DNA of 64,000 nucleotides from Desulfatiglandales bacterium (GCA_963662465.1 OY759599.1:64001-128000), one strand, 5' to 3'. Positions 5,120 to 51,119 are shown, counted from the first letter of the stretch. Numbers and translations: made by a program. The notes: a model not told the origin generated them from the sequence alone.

Positions 5120-6040
5120 ATGGGTAAAATTTTATCGCCAGTTACTAAGAAAGATCATGTAAAGCATCTGAGGACAATCAATATTGATTGGATCGTTGAA
5201 CAGTGGAAAGGAAAATTTGATTATGATGTAAGATACCTTTTTAACGGCCTCGATTCCTTAGAACTATTTCAATGTGTTGATACAGGATATTCTTTTTATT
5301 ATCCGGCTGTAATGGGTGACGCAGCTTTTTATAAGCATTGTCAAACAAAAAGTTTTTACTATATGCCATGGAAATGGGAGCATGAGCAAGCCGTCGGTTT
5401 TTTAACTGACAATATTTCTATTATAGAGATTGGTTGTGCTGAAGGTCATTTTTTGGAAAAATTAACAACGCTTTTTAATTTGCGGCAATGCGTGGGTCTT
5501 GAAATGAACATTGCAGCACTAGAAAAAGCCAGAGAAAAAGGACTGAACGTCCATAGTGAAATTTTGGAAGAGCATGCCCAAAATAATAAAAATAAATATG
5601 ATGTTTTATGCAGTTTTCAAACACTTGAGCATATAGCTGATGTTCATTCTTTTATTGAACACAGCCTTTCTTGTCTTAAAAAAAATGGAAAGTTGATCAT
5701 AAGTGTTCCGAACAATCAATCTTTTATTTCCGAAACAGACCAGATTTTGAATATGCCCCCTCACCATGTGGGCCTGTGGGACCAAAAATCGCTTCAATCA
5801 ATTGTAAGTATATTCAATTTAAGGTTTGATGTGATTTTGTTTGAACCGATTCAAAAATATCATGTAGAGTTTTTTAAAAGAACAGTGTATCGAAAAGTGA
5901 TTGGAAAAAAGTTTGATAATCGATTGGTTCGAAAATTTTACAGAGAACTGTTTTTGAAACCTTTTGTTGATAAATATATTGAATACTGCCAAAAATGGAT
6001 TCCAGGACATACTGTTCTTGCAGTGTATTCAAAAATATAA
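5120..6040 (+). CDS. Class I SAM-dependent methyltransferase
   Basis: IIEIGCAEG, FQTLEH, GKLIISVPN, PPHH. Confidence 0.9.
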   Translation: MGKILSPVTKKDHVKHLRTINIDWIVEQWKGKFDYDVRYLFNGLDSLELFQCVDTGYSFYYPAVMGDAAFYKHCQTKSFYYMPWKWEHEQAVGFLTDNISIIEIGCAEGHFLEKLTTLFNLRQCVGLEMNIAALEKAREKGLNVHSEILEEHAQNNKNKYDVLCSFQTLEHIADVHSFIEHSLSCLKKNGKLIISVPNNQSFISETDQILNMPPHHVGLWDQKSLQSIVSIFNLRFDVILFEPIQKYHVEFFKRTVYRKVIGKKFDNRLVRKFYRELFLKPFVDKYIEYCQKWIPGHTVLAVYSKI

Positions 6041-7350: not shown

Positions 7351-7503
7351 TTGATTAATACTACTGTATCATATAGTAAAAATCAGCCATATAATCAAGG
7401 ATATCAAATTCAATTTGTATGTGGAGTTCTATTTATTATTAATCCGTTGTTAAATATTTTCATATTAACGTCATTAATTCTGGCTCAACCGGAACTGGTG
7501 TGA
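7351..7503 (+). pseudogene. Truncated 5' end of a Wzy/EpsG-like gene, diverged homolog of 8291..9535
   Basis: YQIQFVCGVLFIINPLLNIFIL versus YQLQILCAFLFIINPIFSIFIL; upstream 90 bp is also homologous. Confidence 0.75.
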
Positions 7504-7695
7504 TGCCGATCCCCGTCAACTGGAATCAATGTGGTCAATAAAATCAATCTGTTACGCAAACTATTGTAAGATATCAATATCTTAACAATGTTATTAAGAG
7601 TAAAAAAATGAGCACTTTTTGATTTTAGCGTAACTACCTGTAAAAGAACGAGAAAATAGCAAAAAGACAGTCATTTTACCACAGCGGTTCCGGTT
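7487..7695. mobile_element. MITE-like or internally deleted IS, about 209 bp
   Basis: Imperfect terminal inverted repeats AACCGGAACTGGTGTGA / CCACAGCGGTTCCGGTT (14/17); no target duplication seen. Confidence 0.5.
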
Positions 7696-7738
7696 TTGAC
7701 CCTTAATTCTCTACGAAAAAGAAACAAATGAAAGGTTG

Positions 7739-8205
7739 TTACCTTATGGCACTGTCGAAACGGGTGATAATGGAAAACTTATCCAGTTGACAGCGAAACC
7801 GGAGGTTACCTTTAAAATCAATAGCGGCATGTACATTTTGGAGCCGCGCTTATTGTACGAAATTCCAGAAAATAGGTTTTTTCGCAATACCGCAAAACTC
7901 ACCTTTTAAAGTCATATTTAATGAAATAGGCATATTTATTGCTTATCATAACATATGATTGTTTTTTAATGGGTTATAGCATGTGAAAATGGATGCCAAC
8001 TCTTTATTTTACCATGAAAAACTGGTTTGTAGGTGAGTTTTGCGGTGCTGCGTTTTTTCACATTACTCAATTAATTGCGAATGTAAACTCAAGAGGTGGT
8101 CGGGTTGGCGTATTTCCAGTGAGTGAGAGATCATGGAAGGATGTTGGCAACTGGGGAGGATATCTTAAGATGCTTAAGATAGGGGTTTTAGCTAAGGGAC
8201 AATAA
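7739..8205 (+). pseudogene. C-terminal fragment of a sugar-phosphate nucleotidyltransferase, interrupted by a MITE
   Basis: LPYGTVE..KPEVTFKINSGMYILEP..EIPENRFF|HITQLI..GVFPVSERSWKDVG; the frame is restored by removing the MITE and one target copy. Confidence 0.8.
7884..8051. mobile_element. 168-bp MITE
   Basis: 21-bp TIRs GCA(AT/GC)ACCGCAAAACTCACCT; 8-bp target duplication GTTTTTTC at 7876-7883 and 8052-8059. Confidence 0.9.
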
Positions 8206-8290
8206 AGACAAAATTGCCAATGAACTGGTAAAAACATACTCAGATATTCTGGCCACCCGTGTAAATGGAATATAAAAGGTTTTATTAAAA

Positions 8291-9535
8291 TTGACTAATT
8301 ATAGCCTATCATATACTAAAAGTTCGCACTATTTGAAATTCTACCAACTTCAAATATTATGCGCGTTTTTATTTATTATCAATCCTATATTTAGCATTTT
8401 TATTTTAGCGTTATTCATCATTCACCAAAAAGCAACAAATGAAGAATTGTTATATTCTTTATATGTCTTGATATCGCTTTATCTCGGACTAATAAATTCA
8501 ACTAGAACTCCCTTAGTTGATTTACGAAACTATGAAATTTCCTTCGAACGCGCATCATACTTAAATATTTTTGATTTTCTGTATTATTATCCTAAAGACC
8601 CAATATTTTACATTGTAACTTTTTTGTGCAATAAAATCTTTTTTGCCAACTTTAAATTATATGTCATTTTTATTACTTTTTGCCAATATTATCTGATGTT
8701 CCTTGCAATTCATAAATATTGGAAAAATAATGACAAAAGCTTATTACTTTTTGCAGTGCTAATTTTCTCAATTTTTAGCAGATTTTTCTTTGCATCTGCT
8801 TACTTAATAAGACAAATGTTAGCTGGAAGTGTTTTTATCTATTTCTTTGTCACAAAAATAGTCGAAAAAAAAACATATTGGTGGCTAATTCCAATTGGTT
8901 TTTTAATCCATTCATCTTCTATCATTTTGTATGTTTTGAGTTTTATCCCTCGATTAGAACATAAGCTTACAATTCGAAACGGAGTTTATTTATTGTTCCT
9001 TGGAATTAGTGTTGTATTTTTAGGTAGATATATGCTAATTTTTTTGGATAGCTTAACAAAAGGGATAAATTATTTGAACTATCCAATTCAAAGAATTGCT
9101 TCATTAGGGTCAACGGATCTTACCTCGTGGTATGATGGCTCCAGTGCAAATAGCAGTAGGTATTTCTATTATGTTCAATTACTTCCAGTTATAGCTTTTG
9201 CAAATGTTTACTTGAAAGGGAGACTTGATACCTATGCTTTCTTAAATTTATCCCTCATACTTATTTTTGCTTGTGAATTATTATTTTTTAGTAATTATTT
9301 ATACATACAATTGCGATTTATGTATTATTTGGCTTTTGTAATTCCTTTTGTTTATCCTTATTTGTTTTTCAAGAATAGATTGTATAGTGATATTGCAGTA
9401 AAAACATTAGGCATGACGTTTATAATTGTTTGGTTTATTCATCGATTGATAATGGGCTTCAATATCGAAGGAATTGGGTTTGCACCAATTGGTGAAATTA
9501 TTGCATATCCGGTTCCGATGTATTTCATGAATTAA
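8291..9535 (+). CDS. EpsG/Wzy-like polysaccharide polymerase
   Basis: AT-rich, about 10 TM segments, DLRNY, LIRQMLA, LIHSSS. Confidence 0.8.
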   Translation: MTNYSLSYTKSSHYLKFYQLQILCAFLFIINPIFSIFILALFIIHQKATNEELLYSLYVLISLYLGLINSTRTPLVDLRNYEISFERASYLNIFDFLYYYPKDPIFYIVTFLCNKIFFANFKLYVIFITFCQYYLMFLAIHKYWKNNDKSLLLFAVLIFSIFSRFFFASAYLIRQMLAGSVFIYFFVTKIVEKKTYWWLIPIGFLIHSSSIILYVLSFIPRLEHKLTIRNGVYLLFLGISVVFLGRYMLIFLDSLTKGINYLNYPIQRIASLGSTDLTSWYDGSSANSSRYFYYVQLLPVIAFANVYLKGRLDTYAFLNLSLILIFACELLFFSNYLYIQLRFMYYLAFVIPFVYPYLFFKNRLYSDIAVKTLGMTFIIVWFIHRLIMGFNIEGIGFAPIGEIIAYPVPMYFMN

Positions 9536-27018: not shown

Positions 27019-27414
27019 TTGGGTGAAAACCAGAAGAAAATTGACGAAAGGACTTTTGATTTTGCTTTGTTGGTGGTTGATGCTTACAGGTTTTTGCTGC
27101 ACAAAAAAGAGTTTGTCTTATCCAAGCAATTTTTGAGAGCAGGCACTTCAATAGGTGCCAATGTCACAGAGGCACAGGCGGCTCAGAGTAGAAATGACTT
27201 TATTTCAAAGATGTCCATTGCTTCAAAAGAGGCAAGGGAGACGGATTATTGGGTTCGGCTTCTCAGGAAATCCGGGTATTTTAAAGGGTATGAAAAATTG
27301 GGTATTTTGGAGAAAGATATTTCAAGTATCATGAGGATCTTGACGAGTATCGTAAAAACCACTCGGGAAAATCACCCAAAACCCAACACTCAAAACCCAA
27401 AACCGCTAAAATGA
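27019..27414 (+). CDS. Four-helix-bundle protein (23S rRNA IVP-like family)
   Basis: LSKQFLRAGTSIGANVTEA, FISKMSIASKEARETDYW; both ends lie in heptamer repeats. Confidence 0.92.
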   Translation: MGENQKKIDERTFDFALLVVDAYRFLLHKKEFVLSKQFLRAGTSIGANVTEAQAAQSRNDFISKMSIASKEARETDYWVRLLRKSGYFKGYEKLGILEKDISSIMRILTSIVKTTRENHPKPNTQNPKPLK

Positions 27415-39145: not shown

Positions 39146-39511
39146 AACCAGCCCAGCGACCCCAGCACCCGTACCATTTTTGAGTTTTCTGCATTTATCC
39201 TTCCTTTCGATTGCCCACCAGAGTAACAACCACCGCCTCATTACACGAGATACCAAAACAAATGAACCCATTAAATCCTGAAGAGACGAAAAATGTCAGC
39301 GGAATTCCGCCCATTGTTCTGGGTGTTGTGGATTTCTGTTTGCTGAATCTGGCATTTTTTCTGCTGAATTACTGGAAACGGGGATCTTTTGAGTTGGCCC
39401 CAAAATATGGGAAGCTGCTGCTGGCCTTTTATGGGGTCTGGTTCCTGGTTTCCCTGGCCAATAAGAAATTTCAGTGGCGGGAATACGCGGGGTTGGGTAG
39501 AGGGCTGTGGA
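39146..39511 (+). pseudogene. Near-identical copy of the sugar transferase leader and 5' end
   Basis: Matches about 41990-42350 at DNA level. Confidence 0.9.
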
Positions 39512-39517
39512 GGCCCT

Positions 39518-39821
39518 GAACTGCAGTTTTGAGTTTTGAGTTTTGAGTTAAAGGAAACGTCCTGATTATGGGGGGTGATGGGAAGATCTTTAAAGACAGT
39601 TTTGGGTTATGGGTTAGGGAACAGCAGTTTTGGGTTTTGAGTTTTGAGTTATGAGTGAAAGGAAGATTGATGCGCGGACTTTTGAGTTTGCTCTGGTTGT
39701 GGTGGATGCGTACAAATTTCTTCTGGGGAAAAAGGAGTTTGTGCTTTCGAAGCAGTTTTTAAGGGCTGGTACTTCGATCGGTGCGAATGTGACGGAGGCC
39801 CAAGCTGCCCAAAGCACTTAA
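39518..39821 (+). pseudogene. One satellite unit plus a truncated four-helix-bundle gene (39651-39821)
   Basis: MSERKIDARTFEFA..RAGTSIGANVTEAQAAQST*; ATG lies inside heptamer TTATGAG. Confidence 0.9.
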
Positions 39822-41393: not shown

Positions 41394-41965
41394 ATGAATC
41401 AGCTAAATTCTGAAGAAATGAAACATGTCGGCGGAATTCCGCCCGTTGTTCTGGGTGTGGTGGATTTCTGTTTGCTGAACCTGGCGTTTTTTCTGCTGAA
41501 TTACTGGAAACGGGGATCTTTTGAGTTGAGCCCCATCTATGGGAAGCTGCTGCTGGCCTTTTCAAGAAGAGAATTGCGATGCCTGGACAGGGAAAACGTG
41601 GGGGGTGGAGGAGCTTTCTCACAAGCCTGGTGGATCGAAAAGGCATTGACGCAGTTGCCTGATCTAAAAAAAAGTAACTCGCGCAGAGACGCCAAGACGC
41701 AAAGAAGAGAAGTTTTTTTGTTTTTCTCTGCGTCTCCGCGTCTCTGCGCGAGAATATAGAGACTTTCTTATAAGAAACAGATTCAAACATATCTTTGGCT
41801 TACGGGTTGCAGGCTGGGGTATCTGTTGAATTTCGGTGGGGCCCTGATGAAACAGGGTATTACCAGGGCTGTCAATAATCTTGAAGAATAAATTATCTCG
41901 CGCAGAGACGCGGAGGCGCAGAGGGAAGAAGGGTTTTTTGGTTTTTCTTTGCGTCTCTGCGCGAG
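41394..41965 (+). pseudogene. Mosaic remnant: sugar transferase 5', HigB-like piece, HigA 3', hairpin, GxxExxY 3', hairpin
   Basis: Segments match 42101-42268, 44512-44640 and 44916-45070; FKKRIAMPGQGKRGG at about 41561-41608. Confidence 0.85.
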
Positions 41966-42100
41966 AATAAAATAAGATGAAACGAATAAGCAGCCCAGCG
42001 ACCCCAGCACCTGTACCATTTTTGAGTTTTCTGCAATCCTTCCTTTCGATTGCCCGCCAGAGTAACAACCACCTCCTCATCACACGAGATACCAAAACAA

Positions 42101-44098
42101 ATGAACCCATTAAATTCTGAAGAGACGAAATATGTCAGAGGAATTCCGTCCATTGTTCTGGGTGTTGTGGATTTCTGTTTGCTGAATCTGGCATTTTTTC
42201 TGCTGAATTACTGGAAACGGGGATCTTTTGAGTTGGCCCCAAAATATGGGAAGCTGCTGCTGGCCTTTTATGGGGTCTGGTTCCTGGTTTCCCTGGCCAA
42301 TAAGAAATTTCAGTGGCGGGAATACGCGGGGTTGGGTAGAGGGCTGTGGACCCTGGCCCGATGCGGGCTGTATCTGGCCTACTGTGTGGCCGTCATGGTA
42401 GTGATCATGGGCCTCTATGGCTATTCCAGGGGGCAGGTGTTCGGGACCTGCCTGGTGTTCGTGGGATTGGAAGGGGTCGTGTTCTGGGGTGTGTATTTCC
42501 TGCTTCGGCGGTCCAATGGGGGGGACGTAAGGCGGGAACCATTGATGGTGGAGCGCCCTGCCCGAATTTCCTGGCGGCTGATGGTGGTGGATTTTGTGCT
42601 GGTGGGGGTTTCCTTTTTCGTGGTCAATTATCTGAAACGGGACGGCTTTCATGTTCTTCCGGATTATGAGAAACTGCTGCTGTTGATTTATGGGTTGTGG
42701 TTCGTCTGTTCGCTGGCCACCCGGAAGTTTGAACGGCTGGATTACGTGAATTACTACCATGGCCTCTGGCCGTGGATCAAGGCGATGATTCTGTTGGCCT
42801 TTTCCATGGGGGTGATGGTTTTTTTGTTTCGGTTTCGGTATTTTTCAAGAACCCAGGTGTTCGGGCCCATGGTCGTGCTGATGGTGTTGGAGACGGTTTT
42901 CTACCGGTTTTATTTTGAGCGCAAAAAACGGGTCGGCGCCGAGGGGGATATTGAATCCGCTGATACAGTGTCCCGCATCCTGAAGCAGGAACCGTTGACG
43001 GTGGAAACGGATCTGGAGGCCCTGAAGCAGGCGTTTTTGTCGCCCATTCGAGAACGGTTGCGGGATCGGTACCTGAAAAATCATTCGGGGCTGTTTTCGC
43101 TCATGGACCGGTCCATGGATCTGGCGGGCATTTTAAGGGCGGAAACGGCCATTCGAAACAGCAGTGAAATGCTCTATTCCGATACGGTGGGCGAGCGATA
43201 CATGCGGCTGTTCGTTAACCTGCGGAAGATCAATGATATTCGTTATATCAACCAGTATTTTCTGGCGGTGCACAATTTGTTGATTCCCGGGGGGTACCTG
43301 GTGGGGCGCGCCCATACCCTTGCCACCCATCGGGAATGGATGATCCGGAAGTTTCCGCGGCAACTGGCCAATGCCCTGTACGCAGTGGATTTTCTGTTTA
43401 ACCGGGTGATGCCCAAACTTCCATGGGTCAAGCAGGTTTATTTTTCCGTGACCAGGGGGAAGAACCGGGTCATGAGCCGATCGGAGTTGCTGGGCCGGCT
43501 TTGTTTCTGCGGGTTTGAGATTGTGGGGGAAGAAGATATTGACGAACGGTTCTGTTTTGTGGTGCGAAAGGCCAAAACCATCTCCATGGTGGAAAATCCG
43601 TCTTATGGTCCTCTGGTGGGGTTTAACCGGATCGGGGCCGGCAATAAACCCATTCGAACCTATAAATTCCGGACCATGCACCCCTATTCCGAATTTTTGC
43701 AGGATTATGTGTATGAGAAAAGCGGCCTTCAGAAGGGGGGAAAGCTGGAGAATGATTTTCGCATTACGGTCTGGGGAAAGGTGATGCGGAAACTCTGGCT
43801 GGACGAGCTGCCCATGCTGTACAACTGGGTGCGGGGGGAGCTGCAGATCTTTGGGGTGCGGCCGTTGAGCGCGCACTATTTCAGTTTGTATCCAGAAGAT
43901 TTGCAGGAATTGAGGGGGCGGGTGAAGCCGGGGCTGGTGCCGCCGTTTTATGCGGATATGCCGGTGACGTTTGAGGAGATTTGTGAGTCGGAGCGGCGGT
44001 ATATTCTGGCTTATTTGGAGCGGCCGGTTTGGACTCAGGTTAGGTATTTTTGGAAGGCTTTTTATAATATTGTGTTTCGGGGGGCTCGGAGCGGGTAG
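42101..44098 (+). CDS. Membrane sugar transferase (phosphoglycosyl-transferase domain)
   Basis: About 8 N-terminal TM segments; YKFRTM, DFRIT..G..MRK..LDELP, GVRP. Confidence 0.88.
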   Translation: MNPLNSEETKYVRGIPSIVLGVVDFCLLNLAFFLLNYWKRGSFELAPKYGKLLLAFYGVWFLVSLANKKFQWREYAGLGRGLWTLARCGLYLAYCVAVMVVIMGLYGYSRGQVFGTCLVFVGLEGVVFWGVYFLLRRSNGGDVRREPLMVERPARISWRLMVVDFVLVGVSFFVVNYLKRDGFHVLPDYEKLLLLIYGLWFVCSLATRKFERLDYVNYYHGLWPWIKAMILLAFSMGVMVFLFRFRYFSRTQVFGPMVVLMVLETVFYRFYFERKKRVGAEGDIESADTVSRILKQEPLTVETDLEALKQAFLSPIRERLRDRYLKNHSGLFSLMDRSMDLAGILRAETAIRNSSEMLYSDTVGERYMRLFVNLRKINDIRYINQYFLAVHNLLIPGGYLVGRAHTLATHREWMIRKFPRQLANALYAVDFLFNRVMPKLPWVKQVYFSVTRGKNRVMSRSELLGRLCFCGFEIVGEEDIDERFCFVVRKAKTISMVENPSYGPLVGFNRIGAGNKPIRTYKFRTMHPYSEFLQDYVYEKSGLQKGGKLENDFRITVWGKVMRKLWLDELPMLYNWVRGELQIFGVRPLSAHYFSLYPEDLQELRGRVKPGLVPPFYADMPVTFEEICESERRYILAYLERPVWTQVRYFWKAFYNIVFRGARSG

Positions 44099-44103
44099 AT
44101 TAT

Positions 44104-44180
44104 CTCGCGCAGAGCCGCAGAGGCGCAGAGAGGGAAAGGATTTTTTGTTTTTTCTTTGCGACTTAGCGTCTTTGCGCGAG
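44104..44180. repeat. Hairpin element CTCGCGCA...TGCGCGAG built of 9-mers
   Basis: Full copies at 41678-41752, 41897-41965, 44104-44180, 44563-44638, 45042-45122; single arms near 21821, 27838, 27967, 32688, 46329, 50600, 60117. Confidence 0.92.
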
Positions 44181-44231
44181 GTGATTTTTGGTTTCTTTGC
44201 GGGAGAGTGAGGGGGCGGGCGGTGGTCTGTA

Positions 44232-44546
44232 ATGAAAAATCGATCTGACAGTATTCTCGCGGTCGTTCATGAGACCGCAAAAGGTTTGCGCGATGCGGGT
44301 ATTATGAATGAAATAACCATGCGTGAATTTGATACGCTATGTCTGTTTCCCGTTAAGACATATCAACCACGGGAAATTAAAGAGATACGGTTGCGCCATC
44401 GGGTTAGCCAGGCGGTATTCGCTGCCTACCTGAATGTAAGCAAGACTTCTGTGGCAAGCTGGGAGTCGGGCGGGAAAAAACCCGGCCCAGCGGCAGCCAA
44501 GCTCCTTAGCTTGGTGGATCGAAAAGGCATTGACGCAGTTGCCTGA
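44232..44546 (+). CDS. Orphan HigA-like HTH antitoxin
   Basis: VSQAVFA, SWESGGKKPG; no toxin gene upstream. Confidence 0.88.
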   Translation: MKNRSDSILAVVHETAKGLRDAGIMNEITMREFDTLCLFPVKTYQPREIKEIRLRHRVSQAVFAAYLNVSKTSVASWESGGKKPGPAAAKLLSLVDRKGIDAVA

Positions 44547-44652
44547 TCTAAAAAAGAAGTAACTCGCGCAGAGACGCCAAGACGCAAAGAAGAGAAGTTT
44601 TTATTGTTTTTCTCTGCGCCTCAGCGTCTCTGCGCGAGAATATAGGTTTTTT

Positions 44653-45036
44653 ATGACGGAAAATGAGATTGGGACGATTGTGGTTGATGCGGCTGTGAAG
44701 GTTCATATGGCGCTGGGTCCGGGTCTTTTGGAAAGCGTCTACGAGATTGTTCTCGCTCATGAGCTTTCAAAGAGGGGACTGCATGTGGAAAGGCAGATTC
44801 CCATTCCCATACAATATGATCGGATCAAGTTTGATGAAGGTTTTAGGGCAGATATCATTGTAGAAAAAAAAGTAGTGCTTGAACTGAAATCTGTTGAGAA
44901 GATTACGCCTGCGCATAAGAAACAGATTCAAACATATCTTCGGCTTACGGGTTGCAGGCTGGGGTATCTGTTGAATTTCGGTGCGGCTTTGATGAAACAG
45001 GGTATTACCAGGGCTGTCAATAATCTTGAAGAATAA
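44653..45036 (+). CDS. GxxExxY protein (PD-(D/E)XK-like)
   Basis: GPGLLESVYE, FRADIIVE, ELKSV, GYLLNFG. Confidence 0.95.
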   Translation: MTENEIGTIVVDAAVKVHMALGPGLLESVYEIVLAHELSKRGLHVERQIPIPIQYDRIKFDEGFRADIIVEKKVVLELKSVEKITPAHKKQIQTYLRLTGCRLGYLLNFGAALMKQGITRAVNNLEE

Positions 45037-45104
45037 ATTATCTCGCGCAGAGACGCAGAGGCGCAGAGAGAAAAAGGGCTTTTTTTGTTTTTTTTCTTAG
45101 CGCC

Positions 45105-45536
45105 TTGGCGTCTTTGCGCGAGAATAGAGAGACTTTGTGCGAGAAATCTAAAAACTGGCCCGGGCGGGTGTTGGTGGCGTCTTATGTATTGATTGCCATT
45201 GCCGCGGTTGTCCCATACGGTTCCAAAGTTCAAAGTGTTTCAGTGGTATCCATCGGGCTTGACAAGATTGTCCACTTTATCGGTTTTGCGTGCATGGCGG
45301 TGTTTTCCCTGGGTGCCGGAAGAGGCGGTCCCTTTTGGAAGAAGATTTTTCTTGTTTTTATGGTGCTGGTTTTCGGTGTCTTAATTGAATTTGTCCAATA
45401 TTATTTGTCTTATCGAACCTTCAACCCGGTGGATATCGCCGCCAATCTTTTTGGGATGCTTTTTGGGATTTTGGTGTGGTATCTTTTCCTGGCGCGTGTT
45501 TTGAGAAGACGTGCGGAGAAGGGCCTTCCGGGTTAG
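45105..45536 (+). CDS. VanZ-family membrane protein
   Basis: DKIVHF, IEFVQ, RTF..DIAAN; start uncertain and lies in a hairpin arm. Confidence 0.8.
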   Translation: MASLRENRETLCEKSKNWPGRVLVASYVLIAIAAVVPYGSKVQSVSVVSIGLDKIVHFIGFACMAVFSLGAGRGGPFWKKIFLVFMVLVFGVLIEFVQYYLSYRTFNPVDIAANLFGMLFGILVWYLFLARVLRRRAEKGLPG

Positions 45537-45768: not shown

Positions 45769-48441
45769 ATGATAAGGATTTTTTGGTTGGGATTGTTGTG
45801 TTTGGTTTTACCGAATGTGGCAACGGGTGAGGTGGTAAAAGGGATTTACGGGGTGCCGTCTATTGCGGAACGGGACCCCTCGAGTTATGTGGGAGATATG
45901 GAAAAGGCCGGGGTGAATGCCGTTTTTGTGAAGCCGGATCGGGATACGGTGAAATGGTTCAAGGACAGAGGGTTTCAGGTGTTTGTTTCCATTGATGCTT
46001 ATGGTGGGTCGCGGGCATGGAAACAATTTCCGGATTCCCGTCCGGTGTTGGCGGATGGGTCTCTTTTGGGGGAAAACCCGGAATATGCCTGTCATGGTGG
46101 CGCATGCCCGAGCCATGAGGGGTGGCAGCGGGAGAGGCTTTCATATATCGCTGGATTGATCAAGGATTTCGAGGGGCAGGGTTTGTTCATTGATGGGATC
46201 TGGCTGGATTATATTCGGTATCCGGGTCGGTGGAGCGTTTTGGATCCGAAGATTCCGGATACCTGTTACTGCGAGAGATGTTTGGGTAAATTTTCAAAAG
46301 AGATGGGGATTGAGTTTCCCATAGGGTTCTCGCGCAGAGACGCAAAGACGCAGAGAAGGGAAGAAGGGCAGAGGTCGGATGTCAGCGGTTGGGCCGTGGA
46401 GGACGAAAAAGATGGGATGATTGGATGGGTGGCAGGGAGCAACACAAAGGAGGTGTCTCGGTGGATCAAAGAGAACTGTCCTTATGAGTGGATGGTGTGG
46501 AAGAAACGGCAGATTAACGGTTTTGTGGAAAAAGTGAGGGGGGTGTTGAATGAGAAATCGCCGGATCGCCGACCACTTTTAGGAATTTTCCTGGTTCCCT
46601 GGACAAAAGGGGAAAGGGGGAACGGGGTTTCCTACAGCTTTGCTCAGGATGGGTTTGAACTGGCGAAATATGCGGATGTGATTTCGCCCATGGTGTATCA
46701 CAAGAAGGTGGGGCGGTCGGAAGCGTGGGTGGGGGTTATGACCCGGTATTATGAGGAGCGGGTTTCGTGCGAGGTTTGGCCGATTGTTCAGGCCATGGAT
46801 TGCACGGTTGAGGAATTTGCGGCGGTTATGCGGTATGCTGGTGAGGGAGGGGCGGATGGCGTTCTGGGGTTTCCGTTTAGGGCTGTGGAGAAGGCGGGGT
46901 TGTGGGAGGGGTTTCGGGGATTTAACCGGGCGGTGAATTTGCTCAAATCCACAGATTACGTGGATTACAGTGATAAGAAGGTAAGAGGATTAGAAGGTGA
47001 GAAAGTTAGTGAAGAAAGTGGGGTGATTGAGATTCGGCCCGAGTATGGGGAATGTGGGGAGTGGGTGGTTCCGTTGCGGGGTTGTGAGGCGGGGGTCGTC
47101 TATGAGTTTCGGGGGGAATTTTGGCAGCGGGTTTGGGAGAATGGGGCTTATCCGATGGTGTTGCTTTGGGGGAGGGAGTTTTTATTGAATACACACTGGA
47201 AGAGCAAGGTGTTTCAACCGCTGCGGGTGTATGTGAGGTGTCCGGGTGAGGTGAGGGATCAGACGTTTCGGTTTAAGAACTGCAACCCCGAGAAAGAAAT
47301 ACGGATGCGTAATCCTGAGTTGAGGCGGTTTTATGGGTTTGCTCCGGAACCGGGCGTGCCTTTGAAGCGGGATTTTTTTGATGAACATTTTTTCCCCATC
47401 GGGGTTTATGGGGCCAACCTGAAAAACCTGGAGGAGATTAAAAAGCTGGCCATCAATACGGTGGTGCTGGGTGGGACGGGAAAAAAGCTCAGGGAACAGG
47501 TGGAAAAGTGTCATGAGGTGGGGTTGCGGTATGTGCTGTCGACGCCCCATGATCCGGATCGGTTGCCGGTGTATCTGGATCAGATTTCGGGGTATGTGAG
47601 GCCTTACGATATGGCGTTTTATGTGAATGATGAACCGGGGATTCATTCGTTTCCGACGGGGAAGGCGGTGGATGTGAACCGGTTGATCAAGGAACGGTTT
47701 CCGGATTGTGCCACCTGTATGGCCATTGTGCGGCCGCAGGTGTGTGGGGAGTATAAGGATGGGGCCGATTTCTTCATGCTGGATCAGTATCCGGTACCGT
47801 TTATGCCATTTGGGTGGCTTTCCGATAGTATGGATTATTGTGCGGCGTGTTTGGGATCCGCAGATTACGCAGATTACGCGGATTACACTGAAAAGAAGGT
47901 TAAAGGTTTAGCAAGGGGTCGGCTGGCGGCGGTGATTCAGGCATTTGGGGGAGAAACGCGTTTTGATCATCCGAGGTTGCCGACTTGGCAGGAGATGGAT
48001 TGTCTGGCGTTTTTGTCGGTGGTGCATGGGTCGCGGGGGATTTTCTTTTATACGTATTCGTGGATCGGGAAGACGGAGGAGGGTCGGGAACGGCTGGGTC
48101 GGGTGGTGGGCCGGTTGAACCAGGTGTACCCGTGGCTGGTGGTGGAGAATTCAGGGGAGAAGGTTGGGGTGGAGATGCTTTCGGGCAATCGGTTTGATCC
48201 GAAGGGACGGGCGGCGGTGCAGTGTTGTCTTAAGCGGAAAGGGGATGAATTGATGGTGTTTGCGGTGAATACTATTGGAACTGGGGTGGAGTGTTTGCTA
48301 GAGGCTGAGAAGGTTAGAGGTTTAGAAGGTAAGAAGGTTAGTGAGGTGTTTTCGGGGGAGGATTATGTGGTTCGGGATGGGAAGATTCGGGTTCGGCTGG
48401 GGCCTTATGGGGTCAAGGCTTTTATCCACAGATTACACTGA
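45769..48441 (+). CDS. Secreted protein with two glycoside-hydrolase-like (TIM-barrel) regions
   Basis: Signal peptide; DGIWLDYIRYP, CYCERC, DVISPMVYH; second region YVNDEP, DQYPVP. Confidence 0.7.
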   Translation: MIRIFWLGLLCLVLPNVATGEVVKGIYGVPSIAERDPSSYVGDMEKAGVNAVFVKPDRDTVKWFKDRGFQVFVSIDAYGGSRAWKQFPDSRPVLADGSLLGENPEYACHGGACPSHEGWQRERLSYIAGLIKDFEGQGLFIDGIWLDYIRYPGRWSVLDPKIPDTCYCERCLGKFSKEMGIEFPIGFSRRDAKTQRREEGQRSDVSGWAVEDEKDGMIGWVAGSNTKEVSRWIKENCPYEWMVWKKRQINGFVEKVRGVLNEKSPDRRPLLGIFLVPWTKGERGNGVSYSFAQDGFELAKYADVISPMVYHKKVGRSEAWVGVMTRYYEERVSCEVWPIVQAMDCTVEEFAAVMRYAGEGGADGVLGFPFRAVEKAGLWEGFRGFNRAVNLLKSTDYVDYSDKKVRGLEGEKVSEESGVIEIRPEYGECGEWVVPLRGCEAGVVYEFRGEFWQRVWENGAYPMVLLWGREFLLNTHWKSKVFQPLRVYVRCPGEVRDQTFRFKNCNPEKEIRMRNPELRRFYGFAPEPGVPLKRDFFDEHFFPIGVYGANLKNLEEIKKLAINTVVLGGTGKKLREQVEKCHEVGLRYVLSTPHDPDRLPVYLDQISGYVRPYDMAFYVNDEPGIHSFPTGKAVDVNRLIKERFPDCATCMAIVRPQVCGEYKDGADFFMLDQYPVPFMPFGWLSDSMDYCAACLGSADYADYADYTEKKVKGLARGRLAAVIQAFGGETRFDHPRLPTWQEMDCLAFLSVVHGSRGIFFYTYSWIGKTEEGRERLGRVVGRLNQVYPWLVVENSGEKVGVEMLSGNRFDPKGRAAVQCCLKRKGDELMVFAVNTIGTGVECLLEAEKVRGLEGKKVSEVFSGEDYVVRDGKIRVRLGPYGVKAFIHRLH

Positions 48442-48455
48442 TTACGGGGATTAGG

Positions 48456-48827
48456 ATGGAAGATGAGAGGTCTTATAAGGTTATTGGGGCTGCTATGGAG
48501 GTGCATAAGGGGTTAGGTTGTGGTTTTCTTGAAGCAGTGTACCAGGAGGCACTTGAGAGGGAGTTTAGAATTCAGGGAATTCCTTATATTTCGCAGTATG
48601 AGATTCAAATTGTTTACAAAGGGGTCGTACTGAACAAAACGTATATCGCGGATTTTGTTTGTTATGAAAAAATAATTGTGGAAATTAAAGCTTTATCAAA
48701 AATGTCTGGTATTGAGGCTGCGCAGGTCATAAACTACCTGAAAGCGTCAAATTTTAAGATAGGTCTTCTTCTCAATTTTGGAGCCAAATCCCTGGAATAT
48801 AAACGCTTCATCCATAACAATCAGTAA
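48456..48827 (+). CDS. GxxExxY protein, second paralog
   Basis: GCGFLEAVYQEAL, ADFVC, EIKA, GLLLNFG. Confidence 0.95.
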   Translation: MEDERSYKVIGAAMEVHKGLGCGFLEAVYQEALEREFRIQGIPYISQYEIQIVYKGVVLNKTYIADFVCYEKIIVEIKALSKMSGIEAAQVINYLKASNFKIGLLLNFGAKSLEYKRFIHNNQ

Positions 48828-48875: not shown

Positions 48876-51119
48876 ATGGAAAAAGCAGCATACATCATAT
48901 ACCTAACCATCCTCCTCCTCAGCATCTTCATGTTCGGGGCGGTGCATACCTACATGTACACCCTGATGACCCTTGGGGTGTTGGCGGCGACTGTTTTCCT
49001 TCTTTGGAAGAATGTTCGGAAGGACTACAAAAGCAGGGAATACCGGTTTCGGGTGCCCCGGAACAGTTTGCATGTGGGGTTTGCGGTGCTGCTGGGATTC
49101 CTGGTTTTACAGATGGTTCCCCTGCCTTCTTTTGTGGTGGATTTTCTGTCGCCGGAAGCATCGGTGGTGGCTGAAAAATCGTTTTCGGCGGTGGAATTGG
49201 TGAATAGCCCTGAGGCGGAAAAGCCGTGGTTTTTCCTTGCGGCCTATGGGTATCCGGTTCGCATGTCGATGGTTCGGTTTGTGGTTTACGGGTTGTTTTT
49301 CTTTGGTTTCCTTCAGACCCTTCAGTCACGCAGGCGAATTAATGTGGCGGTTTCGTTTCTGTTGGCCATGGGGTGTTTTGAGGCCCTGTATGGGCTCATG
49401 GAGACCTATTCCGGGTCGCACAAGGTGTTGTGGTACACCATGAATTATGCCAAAGAACGGGTGAAAGGCACTTTTATCAATGGCAATCATTTTGCCGCTT
49501 ACATGGCCATGGGCGTGGTTCTGGCGGCGGCCTTTGCGGGGGCCATTGCGCCGGAAAAACGTGTCAGCCGAAATAATTCCAGACGGAAGCCAAGTCTGAG
49601 TGCAAGGGTCGCCTCTTTTCTGGAAGGGGAAGAGGCTTTGTTCAAGCGGGTTCTGGTGGGGTTTTCCGGGGTGCTGATGGGGATCGGGTTGATCTTTTCA
49701 GCCTCCCGGGGCGCTATTTTGAGCTGGGCCGGGGCTATGTTTCTGATGGGGTTGCTGCTGGTTTTGCGGAAACAATATCGACGAAAAGGGGTTTTGCTTA
49801 TCGGTATTTTTCTGTTGATTTGCGGTTATGCGGTTCAAATCGGTGTGGAGTATCCTCTGGAGCGGTTTATGAAGATGGAATCGGGGATGGAAAGCCGGTC
49901 GCGCTATGCCGCCAGGACCATGGACCTTTTTGAGGATTTTCAAGTGGCCGGCGTGGGGGTCGGGAATTTCCAATATGCGTTTCCCAAATACCAGTCGGAG
50001 AAAGATAAGAAAAAGTACTATATTTTTGCGCATAATGACTGGGCCCAATATATGGCGGAGGCGGGTATTTTAGGGCTGGGCTTGTTGCTGGGTGGGGTCG
50101 GGTATTACCTTTTCAAGACCCTCAAGCTGTGGGCCAGGCGGAAGGATGCCTATGCGGTGTGCCTGGGGGTGGCGCCGGTTGTGGCACTTGTTTATATCGG
50201 CCTGCATTCCTATGTGGAATTTACGCTGCATACTCCGGCAAACGTGCTCATTCTGTTGTCCATCATGGCCATCGGGCATGCGGCCCTTCATTTGGAACGG
50301 CATCATCGGCGGGATGTGATGAGTTACCGGTATTACAATCTTCCTTTGAAATATAAGGGCGGGGTGGTGTTGCTGTTGATTCTGGGACTGATCGGGTGGA
50401 CGGGGTATTGGAGTATTCGGCATTTCATGGGGGAGGTGTATTGCAATACGGTGCCTAACAGCACCTTGAACCGGGATAAGCGGCCGCCGGTGGGCGAGGT
50501 GGTGCGGGCGGTTGAGTGGGATTCGGGGAATGCTGCTTACTGGTTTAAGCTTGGATCCGCAGATTACGCAGATTACACAGATGGAAAAGGAAAAGATGTC
50601 TCGCGCAAAGGCGCAAAGGCGCAAAGAGGGGAAAGGCAGGGGTCAGAGGTCAGAAGTCTGAAGTCAGAGGACAGAGGTCTGAAGTCGGTAACAGAAATCG
50701 GCGAAAATCTGTGTAATCTGCGGATAATGGCTTTGGAGAGATCTGTGGAACTGAATCCTTTTGACGCGCAGTACCATCTTCGGTTGGGGTGGGAATATGC
50801 GCATTTGTGGCAGGAAAAGGATTATCATGTGAGATGGCTGCCGGCGGCGGATATCAGCATGGATCGGGCGGCTTATTTTGCGGGGGTGAAGAACCCGCAC
50901 CTGCATCAAGAACTGGGGAATTACTGGACCATGCGGAGCAGGTCGGTGATGCCCAATGATCCATTGCACCATGAGGCGTGGGCGAAGGCTTGTTGGCATT
51001 ACCACAAAGCGCAAAGTCTTGAGACAGGAGGGGCGTTGAAGCGGATGAAGAAGGAAATACGGGGGTATGTTTGGAATTTTTATCCGGATGAAGACTATAT
51101 CGCGCAAGTAATCAATTAG
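48876..51119 (+). CDS. O-antigen ligase-like membrane protein with TPR-like C-terminus
   Basis: GTFINGNHFA, SASRGA, GVGVGNF, AHNDW. Confidence 0.88.
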   Translation: MEKAAYIIYLTILLLSIFMFGAVHTYMYTLMTLGVLAATVFLLWKNVRKDYKSREYRFRVPRNSLHVGFAVLLGFLVLQMVPLPSFVVDFLSPEASVVAEKSFSAVELVNSPEAEKPWFFLAAYGYPVRMSMVRFVVYGLFFFGFLQTLQSRRRINVAVSFLLAMGCFEALYGLMETYSGSHKVLWYTMNYAKERVKGTFINGNHFAAYMAMGVVLAAAFAGAIAPEKRVSRNNSRRKPSLSARVASFLEGEEALFKRVLVGFSGVLMGIGLIFSASRGAILSWAGAMFLMGLLLVLRKQYRRKGVLLIGIFLLICGYAVQIGVEYPLERFMKMESGMESRSRYAARTMDLFEDFQVAGVGVGNFQYAFPKYQSEKDKKKYYIFAHNDWAQYMAEAGILGLGLLLGGVGYYLFKTLKLWARRKDAYAVCLGVAPVVALVYIGLHSYVEFTLHTPANVLILLSIMAIGHAALHLERHHRRDVMSYRYYNLPLKYKGGVVLLLILGLIGWTGYWSIRHFMGEVYCNTVPNSTLNRDKRPPVGEVVRAVEWDSGNAAYWFKLGSADYADYTDGKGKDVSRKGAKAQRGERQGSEVRSLKSEDRGLKSVTEIGENLCNLRIMALERSVELNPFDAQYHLRLGWEYAHLWQEKDYHVRWLPAADISMDRAAYFAGVKNPHLHQELGNYWTMRSRSVMPNDPLHHEAWAKACWHYHKAQSLETGGALKRMKKEIRGYVWNFYPDEDYIAQVIN

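What the first reader, a model, noticed from the sequence alone, without database searches (positions are those of the whole stretch)
44104..45122. Hairpins separating single genes, with arms that match across the gene better than within the hairpin
Seen: hairpin (44104-44180), HigA, hairpin (44563-44638), GxxExxY, hairpin (45042-45122), VanZ. Around GxxExxY, the 27-nt arms within each hairpin differ at 4 and 5 positions. The two inner arms facing the gene differ at only 1 position and the two outer arms at 3. In the remnant copy (41678-41965) the inner arms again differ at 1 position and share a variant (GCGGAG) absent from the 44.6-kb copy. Inference: this is the pattern expected if a circular cassette with its own hairpin integrated by crossover in the loop of a resident hairpin. 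Alternatively the arms form a long RNA stem enclosing the gene, like an intervening sequence.
Basis: partly seen in the sequence, partly recalled or inferred. Interest (0 to 1): 0.78.

Follow-up and report, generated by a model that had tools for sequence, protein, structure and literature searches.

The report
Nuclease gene between duplicated hairpin repeats
A small nuclease gene sits between two copies of a hairpin-shaped DNA repeat, with which it comes and goes between related bacteria; the striking cross-gene match of the arms here is most likely a one-off swap of arms in one hairpin, not the scar of a circle inserting into a loop.

Summary
The counts are exact. In 19 related loci with room for a gene between two hairpins, arms match across the gene no better than within a hairpin (9.05 vs 9.74 differences, p=0.43), whereas same-orientation arms match best (5.63, p=0.009): the hairpins are direct repeats. 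Here hairpins 1 and 3 are direct copies (1+3 differences) and only the middle one has reversed arm polarity; one arm exchange explains both crossed patterns, and a close relative shows an inversion between arms. The shared GCGGAG variant is the clade's usual state after the stop codon, not a compensatory change. What holds: gene-between-hairpins is a recurrent, heritable layout (20 of 137 GxxExxY groups; 53 have the gene in the loop), and for one such locus 4 of 6 fetched relatives carry one hairpin and no gene. No circle and no RNA signature was found. The scan noted the GxxExxY-hairpin link before in at least 39 other genomes; three literature searches found no description. It works like Ssn/SRM or REPIN/RAYT with long target duplication, but is a member of neither.

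The parts
44104..44180 (+). Hairpin 1: forward arm 44104-44130, loop, reverse arm 44154-44180; usual polarity of the clade; starts 6 nt after the sugar-transferase stop
   Evidence: polarity index -2.78; direct copy of hairpin 3: 1+3 differences
44195..44205 (+). Leftover end of a further reverse arm, preceded by a loop-like T run
   Evidence: sequence; read by eye
44232..44546 (+). Orphan HTH antitoxin-like gene (104 aa), a passenger: its 88%-identical homologue in G005 has no arms
44563..44638 (+). Hairpin 2: arms in reversed polarity (first arm reverse-type, second arm forward-type), loop in normal orientation; the source of the crossed pattern
   Evidence: 4 of 4 mismatches G-U compatible on the minus strand only; polarity index +2.90
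44639..44652 (+). 14-nt leader between hairpin 2 and the ATG
44653..45036 (+). GxxExxY gene, 127 aa, PD-(D/E)XK fold, predicted catalytic E27, D67, E77, K79 intact; 44% GC
45042..45122 (+). Hairpin 3, usual polarity, 5 nt after the GxxExxY stop
45123..45143 (+). GxxExxY-type leader (like the one before the gene in L109 and in the remnant) fused to the leftover end of the reverse arm that precedes VanZ in G010
45105..45536 (+). VanZ-family gene (true start probably downstream of the listed TTG, which lies in the arm)
41624..41677 (+). Remnant copy: last 54 nt of the HTH gene and its spacer (96% identical)
41678..41752 (+). Remnant copy of hairpin 2, same reversed polarity; first arm identical to F44563
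   Evidence: +2.30
41770..41891 (+). Remnant GxxExxY 3' third (97% identical); the 5' two thirds are deleted from the start codon on
41897..41965 (+). Remnant downstream hairpin; reverse arm lacks one 8-nt unit
42050..44098 (+). Sugar transferase gene (PF02397), left anchor of the variable slot; VanZ is the right anchor
46329..46355 (+). Solo forward arm inside the 890-aa open frame
50600..50626 (+). Solo forward arm inside the O-antigen ligase-like open frame
48456..48827 (+). Second, distant GxxExxY gene (33% identical) in the gene-in-loop layout with another repeat family

Best explanation
The hairpins are copies of a dispersed, imperfect palindromic repeat (arms of three 8-nt units) that belongs to one subfamily of GxxExxY nucleases. 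Usually the gene lies in the loop of one such hairpin; here, and in a recurrent minority, it lies between two whole hairpins in direct orientation. The unit of gain and loss is gene plus one hairpin: an empty site has one hairpin, a filled site two (shown for L045). Insertion duplicates or re-uses the resident hairpin, and recombination between the direct repeats deletes, duplicates and swaps the genes between them, including passengers such as the HTH and VanZ genes (inferred). The arms also recombine with each other by template switching or inversion (an inversion is shown in L113 against L109). The crossed pattern of this finding is one such event: the middle hairpin exchanged the distal parts of its arms while the loop kept, or regained, its orientation, so its first arm now resembles reverse arms and its second arm forward arms (inferred). 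That the nuclease cuts the hairpin and so starts these events is inferred from fold, tight linkage and analogy with Ssn; it is not shown.
For: Direct-repeat arms are closer than cross-gene arms in 8 of 10 four-arm GxxExxY loci, 2 ties, 0 against, p=0.008, and in 13 of 19 loci with a gap of 200 nt or more, 3 ties, 3 against, p=0.009; loops of hairpin pairs within a locus align in direct orientation in 76 of 92 pairs, inverted in 4, unclear in 12. Hairpins 1 and 3 differ at 1+3 positions; hairpin 2 and its remnant copy have the two highest polarity indices of 12 hairpins, while 8 of the 10 others are negative. Reading hairpin 2 swapped gives direct sums of 5 and 4, inside the range 3-8 of relatives. 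The third copy of the HTH end carries a first arm whose 19 nt are identical to the second arm of remnant hairpin 2. L113 has loop and third units inverted against orthologous L109 (alignment score 127 with a crossover after arm position 19-23, 87 without inversion). L045: identical 26-nt loops and 10 shared flanking nt, single hairpin in G137, G134, G141, G129. G010 has about 4.9 kb of other cargo between the same sugar transferase and VanZ, with a GxxExxY 3' remnant and family hairpins. Tandem hairpin-leader-ATG units without the gene in L243 and L095. Template switching gives arm homogenisation and reversible spacer inversion (PMC8604942, passages).
Against: An arm swap with the loop in place needs two switches or two inversions; no intermediate of hairpin 2 itself was seen. 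A second crossed pair exists in the closest relative (L108, around VanZ: inner 1, cross 4, direct 10), so cross-gene exchange may be real in this clade. The own partner is the best loop match in only 8 of 15 loci, and not in the window; 10 shared flanking nt occur only in L045, so duplication on insertion is clear for one locus only. The third copy (G000:7101824) is truncated and can be read either as the ancestral hairpin 2 or as a deletion product. Empty sites were found for 1 of 4 loci tried. Type II loci are related to each other and to the query, so p values overstate. No activity of the nuclease is shown.
Confidence: 0.58

Rival explanations
1. Cross-gene homogenisation: in single-stranded DNA the inner arms pair across the short gene and one is rewritten from the other, so inner arms converge in some loci of this clade.
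For: Inner distance 1 in the intact copy, in the remnant and around VanZ in L108; inner pairing is the strongest duplex in the window (RNA -55.9, DNA -38.4 kcal/mol); background for 1 or fewer differences is 3 of 90 arm pairs.
Against: L108 and L109 have inner distances 4 and 8 around GxxExxY; 1 of 19 loci overall has inner 1 or less; it does not by itself explain why the first arm of hairpin 2 is reverse-type; intact and remnant copies mismatch at different positions, with no change on both sides to a new pair.
Confidence: 0.15
2. One reading: a circle carrying the gene and its own matched hairpin integrates by crossover in the loop of a matched resident hairpin.
For: Fits the four arms around GxxExxY (inner 1, outer 3); single-hairpin empty sites exist; the arm after the stop codon travels with the gene in an Acidobacteriota clade; one contig of run X4 joins 45088 back to 44607, loop to loop (depth 3.5, 44 letters on the short side).
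Against: No cross-gene excess; hairpins are not matched before filling; F44104/R45122 differ at 6; third copy has the other arm type next to the HTH end; identical loops in L045; no recombinase family among 79 proteins scanned, 77 of them from the window; the X4 joint comes from a run holding 0.19 of the words, at 88% likeness, in a repeat, and equally fits a relative's upstream hairpin; gene depth 48 equals flank depth 45-52 in X1. The gene-linked arm variant in Acidobacteriota makes the stop codon in L102.
Confidence: 0.1
3. Piecemeal mosaic: each 8-nt unit toggles among a few states and arms are overwritten from other copies in the genome; the first arm of hairpin 2 came from a solo arm and the crossed pattern is coincidence.
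For: Few variable positions (matrix); solo forward arms one difference from F44563 exist (G000:6068715, 6070531, 7111931) and several solo arms are followed by a similar purine run; the hairpin at G000:7121677 is a mosaic of two window arms; 4 of 90 ordered pairs reach the observed pattern.
Against: Both arms of hairpin 2 are reversed at once (G count at positions 9, 17, 20, 25: 1 and 4, against 4 and 0-1 in hairpins 1 and 3), which one exchange explains and two independent overwrites explain less well.
Confidence: 0.1
4. The arms form a long RNA stem enclosing the gene, cut out like an rRNA intervening sequence.
For: 44550-45135 folded alone gives nested cross-gene stems (24.6 and 26.0 expected pairs); the window has the second largest nested advantage in absolute terms and the largest in favour of nesting (-15.6 kcal/mol); four-helix-bundle (PF05635) genes with similar repeat arms lie nearby.
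Against: With hairpin 1 included the ensemble shifts to local hairpins (15.6 vs about 8 pairs); in 14 relatives nested is better in 6, local in 5, tie in 3, p=0.92; mismatches of gene-in-loop cassettes show no G-U bias to the sense strand (55 vs 44, p=0.31, 44 loci); not in rRNA, no Rfam match. Nesting is predicted in 8 of 14 relatives simply because any forward arm pairs with any reverse arm.
Confidence: 0.07

Closest known systems
Ssn nucleases and their SRM/NTS hairpin repeats (Chenal et al. 2025, PMC11893778; abstract, first quarter of Results and Discussion read)
   Same: Small single-domain nuclease gene flanked on both sides by hairpin-forming repeats that also occur dispersed; repeats cluster around surface-structure genes; repeat-gene-repeat layout
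   Different: Ssn is GIY-YIG, this is PD-(D/E)XK; repeat is a 70-90-nt hairpin of 8-nt units, not a 20-50-nt SRM; usually the gene lies inside the loop; no activity tested here
REPIN/RAYT and TIRtrons (PMC3116915, PMC3733652; passages)
   Same: Inverted doublets forming long imperfect hairpins, copied as whole units (near-identical gene-less hairpins at 16 places in G123), tandem clusters, solo arms as remnants, insertions inside reading frames
   Different: No tyrosine (HUH) transposase is the linked gene: 1 of 30 Y1 genes of the genome has an arm within 1 kb, at 681 nt; arms are not short REP palindromes with GTAG/CGTC tags
Insertion with long target duplication (Furuta et al. 2010, PMC2853133; passages)
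   Same: Nuclease gene inserted without other mobile genes, flanked by direct repeats over 30 bp, one copy at the empty site (L045)
   Different: Described for restriction-modification systems with unique targets; here the target is a dispersed hairpin repeat and there is no methyltransferase
ORF-bearing intervening sequences of 23S rRNA (Coxiella; PMC4990558, passages)
   Same: Short ORF enclosed by a stem of about 28 bp with tandem short units, in the gene-in-loop majority
   Different: Not in rRNA; excision by RNase III untested; in this layout the gene is outside the loops
Integron gene cassettes (own knowledge)
   Same: Single promoterless genes, many toxin-antitoxin, separated by imperfect hairpins in direct orientation
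   Different: No attC cores, no integrase at the array

Membership tests
GxxExxY / PDDEXK_3 protein family | Match to TIGR04256 and PF13366 above cut-off, with catalytic residues | tested here: met
   141 and 142 bits; E27, E77, K79 invariant and D67 in at least 90% of 31 aligned sequences
Ssn/SRM | GIY-YIG (cd10448) nuclease domain | tested here: not met
   PD-(D/E)XK by Pfam; model pLDDT 94.4, best Foldseek rows Cas4 and Holliday-junction resolvase, E 0.0017-0.0024, none at 0.001 or better
Ssn/SRM | Gene flanked by its own hairpin repeats across phyla | tested here: met
   139 of 149 loci with both flanks have an arm next to the gene on at least one side, 112 on both
Ssn/SRM | Cleaves single-stranded DNA at the repeat, not dsDNA or RNA | not testable with these tools
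   needs purified protein
REPIN/RAYT | Inverted doublet forming a hairpin, dispersed as a unit | tested here: met
REPIN/RAYT | Linked Y1 tyrosine transposase flanked by the repeat | tested here: not met
   1 of 30 Y1 genes has an arm within 1 kb and it is bordered by other palindromes
Integron cassette array | attC cores RYYYAAC and GTTRRRY at the hairpin ends (motif recalled) | tested here: not met
   0 of 5 window hairpins on the + strand scan
Integron cassette array | IntI gene next to the array | tested here: not met
   8 TIGR02249 matches, none in or near the window (nearest, under the cut-off, at 7.98 Mb of 8.16 Mb). Arrays without integrase exist, so this alone is not decisive
rRNA intervening sequence | Lies in a helix of 23S or 16S rRNA | tested here: not met
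   no Rfam match in the window; neighbours are protein genes
rRNA intervening sequence | Excised from RNA by RNase III | not testable with these tools
   only contigs; the one RNA run holds 0.05 of the words
Insertion with long target duplication | Direct repeat over 30 bp on both sides, one copy at the empty site, no mobility gene | tested here: met
   for L045; for the window site inconclusive, as no clean empty allele was found

The most novel reading that the evidence does not exclude
GxxExxY, with a Cas4/Holliday-resolvase-like fold, is a structure-specific nuclease for its own hairpin family. Its cut at an extruded or single-stranded hairpin starts repair that copies the gene in beside a duplicated hairpin and shuffles any gene lying between two hairpins, making an integrase-free cassette array that diversifies surface-polysaccharide clusters in many phyla; the gene-between-hairpins form can leave as a 479-bp circle.
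Probability: 0.2. Interest if true: 0.8.

Novelty: new variant of a known kind. Interest (0 to 1): 0.45.

Why it matters
The arm pattern that drew attention is a local accident, but the follow-up gives an undescribed nuclease family a candidate substrate and a second architecture with empty sites. If the protein cuts its hairpin, it is a PD-(D/E)XK counterpart of the Ssn enzymes, with many natural enzyme-repeat pairs (this genome alone has 12 PF13366 matches with at least four repeat families), and it would explain the turnover of small genes in polysaccharide clusters without an integrase. If not, the hairpins are REP-like recombination substrates and the finding is a good example of direct-repeat turnover plus template switching.

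Tried and rejected
Compensatory covariation at position 16: rejected; G is the state after the stop codon in 3 of 3 relatives at 87% identity or more and in 10 of 40 such arms overall, and the intact copy has T and A there. Hairpin 2 as a simply inverted copy: rejected, its loop aligns in direct orientation with 9 of the 10 other loops, the exception being L113. attC, Rfam family, nearby integrase, RAYT: not found. Promoter/terminator scan: 2 promoter-like sites against 2.3 expected; none of 6 terminator-like sites is one of the hairpins, but the scan allows loops of 8 nt at most. Sequence search of solved structures: one row at E 0.062, not used. Reads: 4 of 14 runs laid, all contigs; no joint across the gene in X1; X3 joint 43525-41897 is the paralogous locus at 7.12 Mb; X4 joints are ambiguous; X14 (RNA, share 0.05) does not bridge the gene; absence in contigs proves nothing. 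Empty-site searches for L030, L095, L029 gave other cargo without arms (G156) or no syntenic site. Same-genus search: no intact close homologue in 10 genomes, best 56% (G005), plus a 3' remnant in G010. Tree: quick tree only, 5 of 135 branches well supported; R-gene-F needs 12 changes (shuffled mean 19.8, 0 of 500 as low) but one origin is not excluded. Pool statistics had a one-base error in L113 and were redone. One search was a taxonomy look-up of a guessed name; it places nothing and is not used.

Full report
Observation. I call the purine-rich arm F and its complement R and read both from the hairpin base over 27 nt (three 8-nt units). Around GxxExxY the same-hairpin distances are 4 and 5, inner 1, outer 3. 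Around the HTH gene the pattern is also crossed: same-hairpin 6 and 4, inner 3, outer 2. The family has 48 arms in the 8.16-Mb genome and none in 2 Mb of shuffled sequence; 33 of the 48 lie in three clusters; the window's cluster is a surface-polysaccharide region full of toxin-antitoxin genes. Rfam has no match.

The protein. It is a 127-aa GxxExxY/PDDEXK_3 protein with intact predicted catalytic residues. The model is confident (pLDDT 94.4); the best Foldseek rows are Cas4 and archaeal Holliday-junction resolvases at E 0.0017-0.0024, none at 0.001 or better. PMC3424549 lists the family as of unknown function with many transfers (passage).

Architecture in relatives. A profile found 602 arms against 1 in shuffled loci at score 14; later calls used score 12, for which no null was run. 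Of 160 loci, 11 lacked a flank; 61 were F-gene-R (gene in the loop), 24 R-gene-F (gene between hairpins), 15 R-gene-R, 12 F-gene-F, 27 had one arm, 10 none. After grouping at 95% gene identity: 137 groups, 53 F-gene-R, 20 R-gene-F. R-gene-F clusters on a quick tree (12 changes, shuffled mean 19.8, 0 of 500 as low), in the window's clade and in Chloroflexota- and Acidobacteriota-rich clades, but weak support does not exclude one origin. It occurs at unrelated sites within a clade, so it is inherited as the gene moves.

Of the 20 R-gene-F groups, 14 have four arms in order (6 dropped: L034, L076, L099, L114, L123, L131) and 10 have four full-length arms. In these 10 the summed differences are cross-gene 9.1, same-hairpin 8.8, direct (F with F, R with R) 5.7; cross was lower than same in 3, tied in 3, higher in 4 (p=0.70); direct was lower than cross in 8, tied in 2 (p=0.008). 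At 19 nt (14 loci): 5.57, 5.50, 4.00. Over all adjacent hairpin pairs (63 in 37 loci; one pair per locus counted), the 19 loci with full arms and a gap of 200 nt or more give 9.05, 9.74 and 5.63 (cross vs same p=0.43; direct vs cross p=0.009). The loci are related, so p values overstate, but the direction is plain: flanking hairpins are direct repeats. One of the 19 is crossed like the window: L108 around VanZ (inner 1, cross 4, direct 10).

What makes the window crossed. Hairpins 1 and 3 are direct copies (1 and 3 differences). Against 10 hairpins of the close clade, 8 have negative polarity index, L108_H2 +0.67, L113_H2 +1.33; hairpin 2 has +2.90 and its remnant copy +2.30. Its 4 mismatches are G-U compatible only on the minus strand, those of hairpins 1 and 3 on the plus strand (3 each). 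Its loop is in normal orientation. If its arms are read swapped, both crossed sets become ordinary direct repeats (sums 5 and 4). The loop-crossover model needs two events and leaves F44104 and R45122 as the resident pair; they differ at 6, and R45122 is followed by a GxxExxY-type leader and the stump of the arm that precedes VanZ in G010. Single hairpins are not matched either (4-8 differences in 10 of 10). The variant GCGGAG is the state of the arm after the stop codon in L108, L109, L113 and the remnant. A third copy of the HTH 3' end at G000:7101760 (97% identical over 64 nt) is followed by a forward-type arm whose first 19 nt equal those of R41752 and F41897, then a loop like that of 41897, then a break. 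Read as the ancestral hairpin 2, it shows the swap; read as a deletion product, it puts the switch in the arm, not the loop. Inversion between arms is directly visible in relatives: L113's downstream hairpin has the loop and third units inverted against the orthologous one in L109 (score 127 for a crossover after position 19-23, 111 loop only, 103 whole, 87 none). Template switching is known to homogenise arms and to invert spacers reversibly (PMC8604942, passages).

Empty sites. In G121 (L045) the gene lies between an O-antigen ligase and a CpsB/CapC gene with two hairpins whose 26-nt loops and 10 upstream nt are identical. Of 30 relatives searched, 6 with both flanks in one locus were fetched: 4 have one hairpin and no gene, 2 have no hairpin by eye; G133 and G136 were not examined. 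This fits insertion with long target duplication (PMC2853133, passages; the lead came from note e1-2303642) or duplication followed by gain. Three other loci gave no empty site. At the window's slot G010 has about 4.9 kb of other cargo; L108 has hairpin-VanZ-hairpin where L109 and L113 go from one hairpin to the next gene; the HTH homologue in G005 has no arms. Tandem hairpin-leader-ATG units without a gene occur in L243 and L095. Erosion of the inner arms of hairpin-F-gene-R-hairpin arrays (as in L130 and L047) is a plausible first origin of the layout; it is not tested.

Circle and RNA. Four of 14 runs were laid, all contigs. In X1 the gene's contig has depth 48 against 45-52 for the flanks and no joint crosses the gene. 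One X4 contig joins 45088 back to 44607, as a circle would, but at depth 3.5 in a relative and inside the repeat, so it also fits an ordinary upstream hairpin. Folding favours nested stems for 44550-45135 alone and mostly local hairpins when hairpin 1 is included. In 14 relatives arm duplex energies favour nesting in 6, local in 5, tie in 3, and gene-in-loop cassettes show no sense-strand G-U bias (55 vs 44). Downstream hairpins of the R-gene-F form lean to the sense strand (18 vs 7), which fits local hairpins in RNA or in one DNA strand.

Comparison. It works most like Ssn/SRM (PMC11893778; abstract, Results part 1 of 4, Discussion; lead from note e1-5231950) and REPIN/RAYT (PMC3116915, PMC3733652; passages), but the nuclease is neither GIY-YIG nor Y1. 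It is not an integron array nor an rRNA IVS (PMC4990558, passages). Searches for GxxExxY (3 papers, 2 listed, one mention each, listing only), for two of PF13366, PDDEXK_3, TIGR04256, four helix bundle protein, inverted repeat (1 paper) and for the 8-nt unit (443 papers, top 15 unrelated by title and abstract) found no description; the library lacks most subscription journals, and no supplements were read, where such an association could be listed. The scan itself has 39 earlier notes on the gene-hairpin link, 6 on look-alike stretches, and none holding all words for the duplicated-hairpin form. The organism was not placed taxonomically.

Verdict. Observation confirmed; the specific mechanism is not supported, the broader idea of a gene-plus-hairpin unit is. 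Shown: counts, direct-repeat rule, two layouts, empty sites for one locus, one inversion. Inferred: the arm swap in hairpin 2, duplication on insertion, any role of the nuclease. New variant of a known kind; interest 0.45.

Noticed in passing
window 46329 and 50600; G000:49386, 4698154, 7066654, 7354420, 8106295, 8147491: Solo forward arms lie inside long open frames; 8 of the 10 arms inside ORFs of 150 aa or more are on the coding strand, often chained to other repeat families, as with intragenic REPs. G010 has one at L016 (reverse) 10203.
   Followed up: partly
window 45769-48441: An 890-aa ORF without Pfam match carries at least three in-frame repeat-derived stretches; the G010 orthologue is 838 aa.
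   Followed up: no
G000:5563239, 8119351, 7021931, 7064557: GxxExxY genes of other subfamilies, with other repeat families, also show non-loop layouts (F-gene-F-R; R-gene-R), so the switch of layout is not confined to this repeat.
   Followed up: partly
L102:2386, L086:2386, L243 (reverse) 1649, L233:1943: In an Acidobacteriota clade the arm after the gene carries a variant that makes a TGA; in L102 the reading frame runs into the arm and stops there.
   Followed up: partly
window 39197-39520, 41394-41565, 42036-44098; G000:7115291, 7120233, 7122077: The 5' part of the sugar transferase gene is present in several truncated copies, and a second full copy (95%) lies in a paralogous repeat-rich cluster at 7.09-7.13 Mb.
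   Followed up: partly
G000:85821-96688 and 8147491-8156347: The same series of solo arms recurs near both ends of the contig with the same flanks and spacing, which suggests a duplicated block of about 10 kb.
   Followed up: no
window 27019-27411, 39651-39821; L016 (reverse) 7420-9000: Four-helix-bundle (PF05635) genes and fragments bounded by 7-nt-unit arms sit in the same slots, often right behind a solo arm of this family.
   Followed up: partly
G000:7121614-7121753 and L025 (reverse) 5770-5903: A 60-nt internal piece of the sugar transferase gene is fused to a family hairpin, in G000 and in G010 alike.
   Followed up: partly
G000:7094626-7095150: A Y1 transposase-like gene bordered by its own palindromes lies 681 nt from a solo arm in the paralogous cluster.
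   Followed up: partly
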